DNA from: Chrysomallon squamiferum
Lineage: Eukaryota > Animalia > Mollusca
Direction: 5' to 3'
Assembly (NCBI GenBank): GCA_012295275.1
Contig: CM022671.1
Coordinates: 36,146,001-36,210,000, forward strand
DNA length: 64,000 nucleotides
Both the position numbers and the translations under genes were made by a program. Of this stretch, positions 28,507 through 44,952 are shown one piece after another (position 1 is the stretch's first letter; each line of letters starts with the position of its first letter). The notes beneath the pieces were generated by a model, which saw only the letters and a list, made by a program, of their open reading frames with translations, had not been told where the DNA came from and did no database searches.

Positions 28507-31106
28507 TCAGCACTGCTGAGACAGCTGACTATACGACTGTGAAGGTAAGAGCATGGTTGGAACGGGAGATAACTGTGACGCTCTAGGATATGAAAAAGGA
28601 GAATGCTGCTGCATCATAGGCTTTGGTGACGTTGCTGAAGGGATCATTGCATTTGGCGACGTCATAGGATAAAACGGGGTGAACGGCGGCATCATGTGTG
28701 GAGGGATGGAGTTCATGAAATATGACGGAGTTGTCGTCATGGCGATTTGGTGATTTTCCTGAATTTTCTTCTTGTTTCGCGATCGCTTGTTCTGAAACCA
28801 GTTCTGTGAGTAGAAGAATGATTTTCAAAAATTAAAACACAGGCAAAATATTTTATTAGTAGTAGTTTTCGTTTTTGAAACAGTAGTAATATCATCATCA
28901 TCATCATATATTACTACTACTACTACTACTACTACTACTACTACTACTACTACTACTACTATTATTATTATTATTATTATTATTATTATTATTATTATTA
29001 TTATTATTATTATGCTAGGTGTTGTCGTAAATAACTGTATTACAGCAGAAAATATATTTACACTAATAAATCTAAACTGAATTTACCCTAACCACAGCAT
29101 TAACAATACTGAACATTTTTCACTATTAGATATATCAACAGAACTGAAATACTATCGTACCTTCAATTTTTTCTCTGGAATGTTGAGGTCAGAGGTCAGC
29201 TGTTCTAGGATCTCAATGTCTGGGTAGGGGTTTTCCATAAACACTTTCTCTAGGGCTCTCACTTGTTTCGGGGTGTAGTTCGTGCGTCCCTTCTTCACCA
29301 CGATGTCGTGGCTGTCGGGACTGCTGGTGGACGGGGAGTTTTTGTTCGAGTCTGTGGAGACGTTGGAAAGTTTTGACGTGTCGTCGGAGAGTGACGATGT
29401 TCGTGTTCTTGTTGGAACGGGACTGACGTTTTCGCTGGTTCTGGGTGACTGGCGTGGCGTCGTTGTTGTGCATGTATCAGCACGTTCTCTGCTCGCAGGA
29501 AACATGCCGAGTTTCAGAGGCTCGTGCTGCCTGAGTCTGAGATATTCTTGTATTGGAGGAGAAACGTTTTCTGAAAACAGAGAGGAAGATTTTTAAAACA
29601 TTTAAAACTAGTACTTTATTTTCTCAAATACTTGTTCAAGAAAAAAAAAATATATATATATATATATAAATAAATAATAATAATAATAATAATAATAATA
29701 CATTTTCTGCTCAGTCATTCATTAAACTTACGAATAAAAGGTAACAAAATTATTATTTTATGTAACAAAAATATAAGGTTTGATGAAGCACAATTATTTA
29801 TACCATTTTTTTAATAAACATTTATTTATGATTGATCAGTCCTATTTCGTATATAACAAGTAAATAAATAAATAAATAAATATTACCTTTCTGATCATTA
29901 ATATTACTGTAGCTTGGTGCAGGGAAAGGAAAATTTGTCATTTGCGGTGGAAGTCCAAATGAAGGGGGATAACTCAGACCAGGATAAGACATCGCAGACC
30001 CGTATCCATAGGGGAATCCAATGAACGGGTGACGTGGGTAACCGTACGGGTTCATCATGGGGAAGTAAGGAGCGGGTGGAAGGTCCTGAATATGCACAGG
30101 AGCTGCAGTATTTTCTGGAACCGGAAAAAATGCTGGACACCTCCGTTTATCTGGACTTTGTTCAGAAAGACTCGTGTTGGGAGTTGACGATGGTGTGACG
30201 TCATCATCCTCATTTGTTGACGAACAGTTCTGTGAAAATAAAATGAAAATATTATAATTAAAGATATTTAATGTCAGGATTTGTCAGTTTTCACAATATA
30301 TCACAGTAGATTGTATAATGTTAATATTTGGTCTTTTCCAGATTCCACGAACCTACATTTATTCAGTATTTAATATCGTTAAAAGCGTTTATTTTTATTT
30401 AATACATTTATTATTGTTTAATATTAAAATAAATAAATAAAGAACGGAAGACAAATAACATATTTTAAAAACAACTGTACTTGGAATGAAATTTAACTAT
30501 TTACTTGAACTCCAAAGTAATGTTTGCAGTAATTTACAGGAAATTAACATCTGCATCAAGAAAAACTAATCTTTTTGTGGTGGGTGCAAGTTAAATGAAC
30601 ACGATCCACATCAAAGACGCCACGCTGCCATTTCCACTGAACCGTGAAATTCTAACTCTCACTTGCCCAGTAATTGTATTAGATTTTTAAAATAAGTTTA
30701 TTATCTTCATGCTTGATAGGTATGGGGCATTAAGAGCAAAATTAAGAGAAAAAACAAACAAAAAACGTATGCATGGACGCATACATATGTAAATATATAC
30801 ATGTGTATGTTTGTACGTAATTTAAAAAAATGAGAGGACAAAGTAAATTATTTTAAATATTGTCCTAGAATGATTTTAATATTTGCTAAAATTCTTGTTC
30901 ATATATTTGTCTTTCCCTTAAATGTCAAGAAGTATAAACTTTTACATTTGTATCAGTTTTCACAAGTAACATTTAATATATATATGATCAAATGCCTAAG
31001 CAAAGTAAATTATGCACTGTATTATTAAATGATTCACGTAAATTATTTAAGTTTTAAAATAAAAAAATAAATAAAAACTTACATTGGTAATCTCAAAGGC
31101 AGGCAT
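28507..31106 (-). CDS. Divergent PRD-like Q50 homeobox protein 1 (357 aa; exons 31106-31083, 30229-29887, 29570-29161, 28803-28507)
   Basis: Homeodomain KKGRTNYTPKQVRALEKVFMENPYPDIEILEQLTSDLNIPEKKLK|NWFQNKRSRNKKK; phase-0 intron between residues 46/47 (PRD-class hallmark); GT-AG sites in frame; P/S/Y/M-rich flanks; TATTTAAA at 31198-31191. Confidence 0.88.
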
Positions 31107-32424
31107 GATGTGTAACGAAGTCAGCTAAGCTAATGAACAACAGATAGTAAAGACGATTTGAAATGAAATAAATTTTAACTGAAGCAGCAGTTTAAATACC
31201 AAGTTAGAAAAAACAGTTGGCATAAAGTGAGTTCTTGTCATGGGTGACAGATACGGATGTCACCGGTTCTTACGATTAATAAACAATGGCCATTATTACA
31301 TCAGTGACCGCTGTTGTTTCAGTCTTTTGTTTTCAGTTGATTGTTGACAAGCTAATGCGAATGATGTGATCAACCAAGAACTGGATTAAAATAATAAACA
31401 ATCGCTATCAAAAGACGGTCAGAGATTATCGAGATTAAAAGATTAACCAATGTTTTTTCAAACAGCAGAGAACGTAAATTGTTTGTTGAGTATTAATTAC
31501 ACTAATTATACATTCATTTGCCTTTGAATTAATGTACTCATGTTTATTATAACATTCAGCCTGTTTTTAAAACTTGTTTGAGAAATATGATAAATATATA
31601 CGGTTTGTTAAGATATACGCTTAACAAGATATTAAAATGTATTACTTACAATCCAAACTGATAAAAAGTCGTATAAAAACGTGCACGAATGGTTTATGAA
31701 AAGATATAGCGAATATATATATATATATATATATTGGGGGCAGGTGAATTATGAGACACCCAAATGCACATAAAAAAACAAAAATAAAAAGACACGGTTT
31801 TGTATAATTATCTTAACATTGGGTGAAAACACTAAAAAATGAAGTGAGAATTTGTAAACGATTTCCTCATAACGAAGAATTTGCTTGTTCATGTGTGTCT
31901 GTGTCTACATATATGTGTTTGTGCATGTATATGTACTTATGTGTATGCGTATATTGTTTGTGTCTGCGTGTGTGTCTTATTTTTATTTTATGACGATATG
32001 AGAGGAAACATTGGATTACAGACATTGCTCAGTAGGAACACACACACGCACACACACACACAGAGAGAAAAAAAAGAAAAGAAAGGAGACGTAAGCTAGA
32101 ACTGTAGAAGTACGTAGGATTACTCCCGTCACTAAACATTATTATTACGTCTGAACCAGCACCGCTGTCTCTTATTTGTTTCTGAAACGTAAAACTCACA
32201 ACCCATCACTAAACAATGATTACCTAACAACACTCACCCTTCATCAGTTAAACGTGCTTAACCCTTTCACCGCTAAGTGATTATCAATCAGCAGTTTAAC
32301 CTGAATTTACCCGAGACAGCACTGTCAACTCACACCTGCCAGGTAGCTAACTAGATTATTATAAACTGATCGACTCAGACAATATGTTTATTATTCACTC
32401 CAGCAGATTTAATGAAACGATAAA
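31107..32424. promoter_or_regulatory. Divergent (head-to-head) promoter region of homeobox genes 1 and 2
   Basis: 1.3 kb between ATGs; TATA-like TATTTAAA (31198-31191, minus) and TATAAA (32360, plus) with an Inr-like TCACTC about 35 nt downstream; GATTA cluster at 31383-31446. Confidence 0.55.
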
Positions 32425-43200: not shown

Positions 43201-44952
43201 CGTGGGTGTAGACTGCAGTAGACAAGAGATTAGATAAACTTCCGTGTTTTTTAAGTTTTTTTTTTTTTTTTTTTTATAACGTTAGTGTAAACAAATTAAA
43301 AAAAAAAAAAAGATAAAGAAAAAAAGAAATAATTTTAAAAGGGTAATTAGCTAAATTGATATCTTGCATTATGAAAAATTATTTGATAAAGTTATATAGT
43401 TATATTTGTGAAAGAGTAAGCGTACGTATGTTTGTGGGGGTGCCTGCGTGAAAATTAACATCATTAACTCCTGAATCCTTGTGAATTTTCTTTTATGGCA
43501 TACTTTGTTATTAGCCAAGGTTATTTTTCGACAATTAAATAAATTAATCATGTTGCGTTTACAAAATATACTGAGAGAAGTGTTCACTAAAATAACACGG
43601 TAGTAAGAAACAAGTAAAACATTCCCTGATTTTAACAAACCAGGATACAGATTTAACTGTCAAACAAGTCTACAGAAATTAATAATAATAATAATAATAA
43701 TAATAATAATAATAATAAAAATAAAATAATTCCTTAATTAATATAGAAGTTTTATATTTTATATCAGATGAAAATATTTATATTTATGTGGAAATCTTAG
43801 GAATGTTTCATTAGACATTAAATCAATAATATTTTCCAATAGTTTAGAATACACTAATGGCAGAATCTAATCCATCTGCTTAATCAGTCTTGAAAAAGTT
43901 CCATTTTGTACAAATAGCAGCACAACAAATGGATTTCAGAGGATGCTTGTATAAAAATCAATTCTTAATTTAATTTGTCACTGTCAAATACGTCACTCGG
44001 CAACAGAAAATGATTGATATAGAATTGTTTTAAGACAACTGACACTTTATTTGACGTAGGACAAGTCGACGTGAGGTATGAAAATAAATAAATAAATAAA
44101 AAATTAAAACATTATCACGCTCTCTTTATCTAAATTTATTTCACTGTTCAAATTTTAAAACATTTAAATAATGTGGAAAGCTGAAAAGCTTAAATAACAT
44201 ATTTATTTATTTATTTATTTCAAGTATTTATTATTGTTGTTGTTGATTTGTTTCTAATAGACTGTCTTTACACTAATGTATTAACCAATTAATGTCCGTT
44301 TAACTTCCGATTAACGTTTATTAATTTAAAATATTCTCTTCTATATTGAGAACTGATCTTTATTTACATCACGTGATTAACGTTGTTTTAAAATTTTATC
44401 TTTTATTCTTGTAAGTGATCTTTAATTGCGTCACGTGAAAAATGTATTACAGTTTTGATTGCTTGCAGAATTTTCACTGTATATTCTTCTATTTTATTAA
44501 TTAAACTATTATGGTTATAATTTTACAGTAATTAAGCAGCGAACATTTATTTATTTTTCTAAAATGCTAATACATTGTTCTAACCGATCACGCCAGCAGC
44601 CTTCCAGAGGGTACATTGTCAGTTTTGCGGCAAAGCGCCATTGTCACTGTTAATTTATCGATTTTTTTTTCTTCTTCTTTTTTTTTTTTAGTTTCTGAAA
44701 CTTTGCGTGAAGTGCGTGTGCCTACAGGTGCCACTCGTTCTAAAAGTTGGTAATGAAGTATTAACCTTTTAGATAAAATTTTAGATAAAATAATAATAAT
44801 AATAATAATAATAATAATCTTCAACTGGAGAATACTGAAAAGGACAGACAACTCTTTCTTTCTCACAGAATCACAGTGAACGAACAAAACATCAACAATT
44901 TTAGATTCTAATGAAGCGATTAGATACAAGAAAAATCGTTTTCACTTACCAT
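40211..44952 (-). CDS. Divergent PRD-like Q50 homeobox protein 3 (514 aa; exons 44952-44950 (ATG only), 42863-42632, 42285-41639, 40873-40211)
   Basis: Homeodomain KKKTRTNYSMKQIRALERIFLETPYPDTENIERISVELEISEQKLR|IWFQNKRARWRKRS; intron at 46/47; ATG|GTAAGT first exon supported by upstream TATATA (45088-45083) and Inr TCAGTT (45059-45054). Confidence 0.87.
41115..41620. repeat. Intronic minisatellite (~21-bp CTATAACTGTTACACGTAATT variants) inside the homeobox-interrupting intron of gene 3
   Basis: Visible; generates the spurious ORFs 41105-41656 and 41156-41560. Confidence 0.88.

What the first reader, a model, noticed from the sequence alone, without database searches (positions are those of the whole stretch)
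28507..44952. Compact cluster of three fast-diverged PRD-like Q50 homeobox paralogues of no recognisable family
Seen: three genes within 16.5 kb (orientations -, +, -) with the same exon architecture (tiny exon 1, intron phases 0/1/0, last intron at homeodomain 46/47). They share homeodomain signatures RTNY (Y8), KQ[VI]R, PYP, a hydrophobic residue in place of the normally conserved R31, and KL[KR]xWFQNKR, yet sequence outside the homeodomain is almost unalignable (357, 888, 514 aa). Known: the 46/47 intron is a PRD-class hallmark, and lineage-specific tandem PRD expansions (eutherian ETCHbox, Dux, Rhox; unclassified spiralian PRD clades) are often cleavage-stage or germline regulators. Inference: a lineage-restricted homeobox family and cluster, possibly acting in early embryos. 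I cannot assign them to a named family.
Basis: partly seen in the sequence, partly recalled or inferred. Interest (0 to 1): 0.8.

Follow-up and report, generated by a model that had tools for sequence, protein, structure and literature searches.

The report
Snail PRD-VI homeobox gene trio
Three neighbouring, long-diverged homeobox genes, likely in a snail genome, match a little-studied mollusc group (PRD Clade VI) rather than an unknown family, and their proteins are predicted to regulate genes by binding DNA singly rather than in pairs.

Summary
In detail: three intact four-exon homeobox genes (357, 888, 514 aa; -,+,-; intron phases 0/1/0; last intron at homeodomain 46/47). 'No recognisable family' is not supported. 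Gene A has a full-length orthologue in the peltospirid snail Gigantopelta (53% identity); B and C have orthologues on ENA contigs of matching lengths, so their linkage is probably conserved. Tandem PRD-VI copies recur in Lottia (four) and Potamilus (two). Tree support for the clade is moderate (92/94) and AU tests could not reject alternatives. All three break two critical published rules for paired-like cooperative dimers (K3, K/R46), so monomeric binding is predicted; gene A has a divergent recognition helix (N47). Transcription evidence is weak (three exonic contigs of B, no junction); early-embryo action is untested. I found no description of this cluster or of PRD-VI function in ten literature searches. 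New member of a known, poorly studied kind.

The parts
28507..31106 (-). Gene A, 4 exons (31106-31083, 30229-29887, 29570-29161, 28803-28507), 357 aa; HD residues 214-273 with N47/S54/N56 in the recognition helix
   Evidence: 189 of 354 aligned residues identical to Gigantopelta XP_041349580.1 (P0013); exon 1 inferred from splice signals only
28762..29298 (-). Homeobox of gene A (29298-29161 residues 1-46; 28803-28762 residues 47-60)
31107..32424 (.). 1.3 kb head-to-head spacer between the modelled start codons of A and B; likely shared regulatory region; holds 7 TAATC[CT] sites
   Evidence: sequence; 7 sites vs mean 1.56 in same-size windows, 0.9% of windows as high (motif chosen after looking)
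32425..36160 (+). Gene B, 4 exons (32425-32466, 33001-33301, 33644-35127, 35321-36160), 888 aa; HD residues 564-623
   Evidence: orthologue fragments P0015/P0160; three exonic RNA contigs in run X1
33869..34198 (+). Coding minisatellite in B exon 3, 48 bp x 6.9 (16-aa repeat)
   Evidence: run X2 skips 96 nt in frame, real allele or assembly collapse
34465..34676 (+). Second coding repeat in B exon 3, 42 bp x 5 (14-aa repeat)
34990..35362 (+). Homeobox of gene B (34990-35127 residues 1-46; 35321-35362 residues 47-60)
40211..44952 (-). Gene C, 4 exons (44952-44950, 42863-42632, 42285-41639, 40873-40211), 514 aa; HD residues 249-308; tail-to-tail with B
   Evidence: orthologue fragments P0001/P0002, 41 of 46 HD residues identical; ATG-only exon 1 inferred from splice signals only
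40832..41776 (-). Homeobox of gene C (41776-41639 residues 1-46; 40873-40832 residues 47-60), split by an intron holding a 48-bp minisatellite (41098-41617)
44953..45250 (-). Upstream region of C; TGTCAAC at -243 and GTGACAT at -158 from the modelled ATG, matching the offsets upstream of A (-243, -157)
   Evidence: 0.2% of 20000 random window pairs show two such near-diagonal matches, but post hoc, and overall alignment is not significant

Best explanation
The window holds three intact four-exon homeobox genes that are likely old tandem paralogues of the spiralian PRD Clade VI in a likely peltospirid snail, and their proteins are predicted to act as monomeric Q50 DNA-binding transcription regulators. 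Shown: gene structure, homeodomains with R5, W48, F49, Q50, N51, R53, clade-wide signature, an orthologue for each gene. Inferred: an ancestral PRD-VI gene duplicated locally, A split first, B and C are likely sisters, and each copy has since been kept under its own constraint. Inferred mechanism: the homeodomain would read a TAAT-type site through R5/Q50/N51, but K2/K3 (no R3) and K/R46 (plus I42 in B) break critical rules for cooperative binding to palindromic P3 sites, so the proteins would bind singly; loss of the R31 backbone contact may be offset by basic 44/46; the long S/P/T-rich flanks would carry activation or repression surfaces; A (N47, S/T54, N56, kept in Gigantopelta) would prefer different sites from B and C. 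Stage is untested: I put transient early-embryo action at about 50%, larval/adult tissue at 35%, germline at 15%.
For: Profile search of 1.84 billion proteins: 369 hits, best single-domain hits share the signature. Of 20 hits I picked (of 150 listed) for name look-up, 15 carry an organism and 15 of 15 are molluscs. Lottia P0008 HD is letter-identical by eye to Paps' PRD_Clade_VI_Lgig rows and carries the clade motif SPQQVRS; Pinctada P0020 differs at 1 of 46 from the Pfuc_64133 row. In 15 named molluscan HDs: Y8 15/15, P24 14/15, non-basic 31 15/15, K/R46 15/15, Q50 15/15, K52 15/15, R55 15/15, versus R31 in 8 of 8 canonical-like rows; window HDs are 58-59% identical on average to this set versus 33-44% to three outgroup sets, and score 103-110 bits versus 58-87. 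ML tree of 51 HDs: the 35 VI-like rows are one side of a branch, 92/94, 90% of 200 bootstrap trees; B+P0015 100/96, C+P0001 98/88, A+P0013 93/74, (B,C) 84/76. 41 of 42 signature-bearing genomic fragments run into Val at 47 and lose helix 3, as expected from a shared 46/47 phase-0 intron. B and C orthologues lie on ENA contigs of the same two lengths, 1,051,672 and 113,801. Tandem copies: Lottia LOTGIDRAFT_154246-154249 and Potamilus CHS0354_007913/007914. Cooperativity rules: PMC13530268 Table 1; R31 backbone contact: PMC12102336.
Against: Clade VI was without monophyletic support in Paps et al. and is not a formal family. My clade branch is not starred, an 84-row tree was largely unresolved, and AU tests on 34 rows rejected nothing: A+B+C with clade-V-like rows p=0.42, with canonical-like rows p=0.17, A+B+C alone p=0.64. 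The VI-like set was drawn from hits to the window's own profile, outgroup labels are mine, and the profiles differ in depth. The window genes match only 3-4 of 7 letters of SPQQVRS (oyster PRD3 also 3 of 7). Same-contig linkage of the B and C orthologues rests on equal contig lengths, and no A orthologue on those contigs was found (0 of 484 candidates). The binding rules were derived from human proteins that have R3. RNA support is three short contigs for B in 1 of 3 RNA runs, without a splice junction, in a library that may hold DNA. One DNA run shows a 4-nt insertion in B's last exon that would shorten the protein after the HD. The taxon is inferred from one orthologue pair.
Confidence: 0.8

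Rival explanations
1. The three genes are a separate, lineage-specific PRD family that only resembles Clade VI by convergence or long-branch attraction.
For: AU tests do not reject other placements, and A+B+C with their orthologues as one clade is not rejected (p=0.64); the clade motif is only partly matched.
Against: Seven signature positions are shared with 14-15 of 15 named molluscan HDs; identity 58-59% versus 33-44% to outgroups; branches of the window genes are short, not long (0-0.16). A peltospirid subclade inside Clade VI is compatible with the best explanation.
Confidence: 0.08
2. Only A is a constrained working gene; B (and perhaps C) are decaying duplicates in a birth-and-death array.
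For: B carries two coding minisatellites, a 4-nt frameshifting insertion behind 35572 in DNA run X2 and a 1-nt insertion in a low-depth RNA contig, and 7 non-synonymous versus 4 synonymous differences of 11; no full-length named orthologue of B or C was among the hits looked up; one of four Lottia tandem models lacks most of the HD.
Against: Open frames of 888 and 514 codons; dN far below saturated dS across the HDs; orthologue fragments in another genome keep the HD and flanking motifs; RNA contigs fall only in B's exons and 3' end; the frameshift leaves the HD intact.
Confidence: 0.1
3. Family assignment as above, but the proteins work as cooperative or hetero-dimers through a new interface (hydrophobic 31, K46) or with TALE partners, rather than singly.
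For: P26, E32 and (in A and C) E42 of the paired-like dimer interface are kept; the R3-46 clash that explains the rule cannot occur as such when residue 3 is K; a hydrophobic residue at 31 is invariant in the family.
Against: R3 itself is listed as critical and is absent; B has also lost E42; no direct data.
Confidence: 0.2

Closest known systems
PRD Clade VI / PRD-VI (Paps et al. 2015, PMC5322547; Barton-Owen et al. 2018, PMC6118893): oyster Cgi_PRD3, Lottia SPQQVRS genes, Pinctada copies
   Same: HD signature (Y8, PYP, hydrophobic 31, K44, K/R46, Q50, K52, R55), no companion domain, repeated local duplication.
   Different: The Lottia tandem copies are over 90% identical (one 90% cluster); here three paralogues are 53-60% identical in the HD, in alternating orientation, each with its own orthologue; A has N47/N56, not seen in 15 named members outside its Gigantopelta orthologue.
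Gigantopelta aegis XP_041349580.1 (auto-named 'vex1-like')
   Same: One-to-one orthologue of gene A: 358 vs 357 aa, 53% identity, 47 of 60 HD residues, same C-terminal end.
   Different: N-terminal ~15 residues differ; whether B and C orthologues flank it could not be read.
Amphioxus Aprd5 (placed in PRD-VI with caution by Barton-Owen et al. 2018)
   Same: By eye K2, K3, L31, K44, K46, K52, R55, W56.
   Different: F8 and THYP instead of Y8 and PYP; the authors warn of long-branch attraction.
Canonical paired-like Q50 factors (ALX4, PHOX2, Uncx, Shox)
   Same: Fold, P26, E32, Q50, N51, 46/47 intron (the intron as a PRD hallmark is recalled knowledge).
   Different: They have R2/R3, R31, R44, Q46, R52, K55 and bind P3 palindromes cooperatively; the window genes lack these residues.
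Eutherian ETCHbox/Dux, sea-urchin Pmar1, spiralian SPILE arrays (analogy; recalled, only PMC4904359's search listing seen)
   Same: Lineage-restricted, duplication-prone homeobox arrays with divergent flanks.
   Different: Not orthologous; their early-embryo role is shown, whereas it is untested here.

Membership tests
PRD Clade VI | Groups with the Lottia/oyster/Pinctada Clade VI HDs in an HD tree | tested here: met
   92/94, 90% of 200 bootstrap trees; moderate only, published rows represented by database proteins matched by eye
PRD Clade VI | Alternative placements statistically excluded | tested here: inconclusive
   AU p 0.17-0.64, 60 columns
PRD Clade VI | Semi-conserved motif SPQQVRS in helix 1 | tested here: inconclusive
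   A 4, B 4, C 3 of 7 letters; oyster PRD3 itself 3 of 7
PRD Clade VI | No paired or other companion domain | tested here: met
   Pfam finds only the homeodomain in 9 exon translations of the three genes
PRD Clade VI | Occurs in trochozoans | tested here: met
   full-length orthologue of A in a gastropod; 15 of 15 organism-named relatives are molluscs
PRD Clade VI | Shared synteny with PRD-VI loci of other molluscs (SRPK or GPCR neighbours) | not testable with these tools
   no genome held; metagenome scans gave no true relatives
PRD class | Intron at HD 46/47, P26, E32, best solved-structure matches paired-like | tested here: met
Lopx | HD with RE.[LF]SYTRYQL and WFQNRRRKD | tested here: not met
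   Lopx rows compared by eye
Uncx / Shox | RTNF, HYPD.F.RE, R31, Q46, WFQNRRAK | tested here: not met
   rows compared by eye
Mix / Sebox | Grouping with named Mix/Sebox HDs | not tested
   no named Mix or Sebox sequence was among my records
Cooperative paired-like factors (P3 dimer binders) | R3 present; no R/K at 46; E42 | tested here: not met
   K3 and K/R46 in 3 of 3, I42 in B against Table 1 of PMC13530268; sequence rule only, binding not assayed

The most novel reading that the evidence does not exclude
PRD-VI is an old, overlooked homeobox family (possibly bilaterian, with amphioxus Aprd5) that gave up paired-like dimerisation, and this conserved three-gene cluster is a co-regulated cleavage-stage module driven by TALE-type (TGACA) and K50-type (TAATCY) upstream sites, in which paralogues with different recognition helices split target sets: a molluscan counterpart of ETCHbox/Pmar1 downstream of the SPILE genes.
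Probability: 0.15. Interest if true: 0.7.

Novelty: new member of a known kind. Interest (0 to 1): 0.38.

Why it matters
PRD Clade VI has been named but never firmly defined or functionally studied in the papers I could search. These data give it a usable diagnostic signature, show it in gastropods and bivalves under misleading automatic names (vex1-, vent1-, ISX-, Pitx-, Hox-like), show recurrent tandem expansion, and supply an unusual case of three old paralogues held together, one with a changed recognition helix. They also make two predictions directly testable in limpet, abalone or oyster: monomeric binding and stage-restricted expression. It is not a new class of system.

Tried and rejected
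Whole-genome search for further copies and synteny: no genome held. tblastn of the three proteins against the window found no fourth homeobox. Word-index homologue searches were insensitive: 1 hit of 525 candidates, 7 of 12, 0 of 484 (sought the A orthologue beside the B and C orthologues; inconclusive). Metagenome scans: 0 of 215 pattern matches confirmed; 12 of 66 stretches at 30-32% identity, not pursued and treated as chance. ESM Atlas: only generic homeodomain clusters, all feature scores under 0.9. 84-row tree unresolved; AU tests without power. RNA runs X3 and X4 showed nothing specific for B (no proof of absence); expression and splicing of A and C remain untested. Promoter homology: collinear k-mer chains not significant (9-30% of random pairs) and global alignments not significant (21-74% of shuffles), so the shared upstream motifs stay a lead. 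Earlier findings: three look-ups, nothing returned. Literature: searches; only the 2015 and 2018 papers treat PRD clades with Lottia; passages of two peltospirid genome papers have 0 occurrences of 'PRD' in the main text (supplements not read). A recalled idea that R55 favours TGAT cores found no paper and is not used. No fold or complex prediction was run: the fold is not in doubt and DNA-dependent dimers cannot be scored.
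Full report
Observation. Six-frame scanning finds exactly three split homeoboxes in the window. Exon models built from GT-AG signals give 357, 888 and 514 aa, phases 0/1/0 and the last intron at homeodomain (HD) 46/47 in all three; Pfam Homeodomain is hit in 3 of 3 third exons and nothing else in the other six exon translations scanned. 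HD identities are 32, 33 and 36 of 60. A and B are head-to-head 1.3 kb apart, B and C tail-to-tail 4 kb apart. No fourth copy lies in the window; no whole genome is held. The first exons are unverified.

Family. A profile of the three HD halves searched against 1.84 billion representatives gave 369 hits, 150 listed; the best single-domain hits share the window's unusual residues. I looked up 20 of the 150, chosen by rank and signature: 15 carry an organism, all molluscs (Lottia, Gigantopelta, two Haliotis, eleven bivalves), under inconsistent automatic names. Paps et al. 2015 (PMC5322547; I saw passages, section 12, supplement search hits and supplement part 2, no figures) define PRD Clade VI with the semi-conserved motif SPQQVRS, 20 members of which 15 from Lottia, and no monophyletic support. 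The HD of Lottia P0008 is letter-identical by eye to their Clade VI rows, Pinctada P0020 differs at 1 of 46 from theirs, and Saccostrea P0022 closely matches oyster PRD3. Barton-Owen et al. 2018 (PMC6118893; passages and supplement hits) recover PRD-VI with oyster PRD3, a Lottia gene and, with a long-branch warning, amphioxus Aprd5. Lopx, Uncx and Shox rows in that supplement do not match.

Tests of membership. In 15 named molluscan HDs (window genes and their orthologues left out) Y8, non-basic 31, K/R46, Q50, K52 and R55 are each 15 of 15 and P24 14 of 15; window HDs average 58-59% identity to them against 33-44% to clade-V-like, canonical-like and Dux-like sets, and score 103-110 bits against 58-87 (outgroup labels are mine, sets come from the same search). 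41 of 42 signature-bearing genomic fragments continue with Val at 47 and lack helix 3, as read-through into a shared 46/47 intron predicts. Of 164 distinct HDs extracted, an 84-row tree was mostly unresolved; a 51-row mixture-model tree with most long branches and near-copies left out puts the 35 VI-like rows on one side of a branch at 92/94, 90% of bootstrap trees. AU tests on 34 rows rejected no alternative (p 0.17, 0.42, 0.64), so the tree alone is not decisive; the assignment rests on tree, identity and signature together.

Age and conservation. Gene A is the orthologue of Gigantopelta aegis XP_041349580.1: 189 of 354 aligned residues identical, including exon 2 and the C-terminus, which confirms the splice model of exons 2-4 and suggests the window comes from a related snail (inference). 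B and C each have an orthologue fragment (P0015, P0001; 30 and 41 of 46 HD residues; 100/96 and 98/88; flanking motifs above all 500 shuffles while three cross controls are not). These fragments and their second cluster members sit on ENA contigs of 1,051,672 and 113,801 bases in both cases, so B and C are very likely linked in another genome; a search for A there found nothing (insensitive). B and C are likely sisters (84/76; shared post-HD motif). Synonymous sites among paralogues are saturated with dN 0.29-0.45. Tandem copies recur independently: four consecutive Lottia models within one 90% cluster and two consecutive Potamilus models.

Mechanism. The DNA-contacting core (R5, W48, F49, Q50, N51, R53) is intact; nearest solved structures are paired-like HDs. 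Cain et al. 2026 (PMC13530268; abstract, passages, sections 7 part 2 and 12) list rules for cooperative binding to P3 palindromes: R3 is critical, R/K46 is forbidden, E42 is required, R2 contributes. All three proteins have K2, K3 and K/R46, and B has I42, so monomeric binding is predicted; K/R46 holds for 15 of 15 named relatives. R31 contacts the DNA backbone in ALX4 (PMC12102336, passages) and is replaced by L/I here. A carries N47, S54 and N56, kept as N47/T54/N56 in Gigantopelta, against V/I47, A54 and W/C56 in the 15 named relatives: a likely change of specificity (inference). Flanks are S/P/T-rich (33-40% of residues in A and C, 31% in B), typical of disordered regulatory regions (own knowledge).

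Expression and timing. One of three RNA runs laid on gene B gave three short contigs (34481-34826, 34867-35117, 35966-36307), all in exons or the 3' end, none in the intron and none bridging it; the library may hold DNA. A and C were not tested. The DNA run X2 differs from B by 11 coding substitutions (7 non-synonymous, 4 synonymous), an in-frame 96-nt skip in the minisatellite and a 4-nt insertion behind 35572 that would end the protein 13-15 codons later, after the HD. In oyster, Paps et al. report 67% of novel homeobox genes peaking early but most novel PRD genes late; PRD3 is in neither list in the text. So the early-embryo idea is open.

Upstream leads. The A-B spacer has 7 TAATC[CT] sites against a mean of 1.56 (0.9% of windows). 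TGTCAAC occurs 10 times in the window, three of them within 300 bases upstream of the three modelled start codons, at -243, -102 and -243; A and C also share GTGACAT at -157/-158. Random triples share such a 7-mer 3.9% of the time and random pairs two near-diagonal ones 0.2% of the time, but the motifs were noticed first and overall promoter alignments are not significant. Reading them as K50- and TALE-type sites is recalled knowledge.

Novelty. Ten literature searches and passages of PMC8848322, PMC7566022, PMC7142155 and PMC7895826 (their supplements not read and may list these genes) showed no description of this cluster or of PRD-VI function; subscription journals are mostly not covered. 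Verdict: real, well-formed cluster; new members of a known but poorly defined clade; interest 0.38.

Noticed in passing
window 47900-62800, minus strand: Tandem rhodopsin-class GPCR array: three related first exons (62804-62283, 57806-57312, 53424-52813; 52-76% identical) but only two second exons (about 61820-60568 and 49000-48030) were found, so the middle first exon may be an alternative first exon or a truncated duplicate.
   Followed up: partly
window 60850-61250, minus strand: The distal GPCR's third intracellular loop holds a 7-residue tandem repeat (KPSEGLE-like).
   Followed up: no
window 7392-14870, minus strand: Multi-exon SRPK kinase gene 13.6 kb from gene A; kinase motifs located; synteny with PRD-VI in other genomes untested.
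   Followed up: partly
window 35572 and 35991: Gene B alleles: 4-nt insertion in DNA run X2 that would drop about 180 C-terminal residues, a 1-nt insertion in a low-depth RNA contig, and F15I in the homeodomain in both X1 and X2.
   Followed up: partly
window 31343, 32323, 45189: TGTCAAC upstream of all three genes, at the same offset (-243) in A and C; candidate TALE-type site.
   Followed up: partly
window 41098-41617 and 49016-49823: Intronic minisatellites: 48-bp unit in the last intron of C, about 53-bp unit upstream of the proximal GPCR second exon.
   Followed up: no
P0008, P0152-P0154; P0018, P0156: Independent tandem PRD-VI arrays in Lottia gigantea (four consecutive models) and Potamilus streckersoni (two); public automatic names for the family are inconsistent.
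   Followed up: partly
supplement of PMC6118893: Amphioxus Aprd5 shares K2, K3, L31, K44, K46, K52, R55, W56 with the family, which bears on whether PRD-VI is older than the Spiralia.
   Followed up: no
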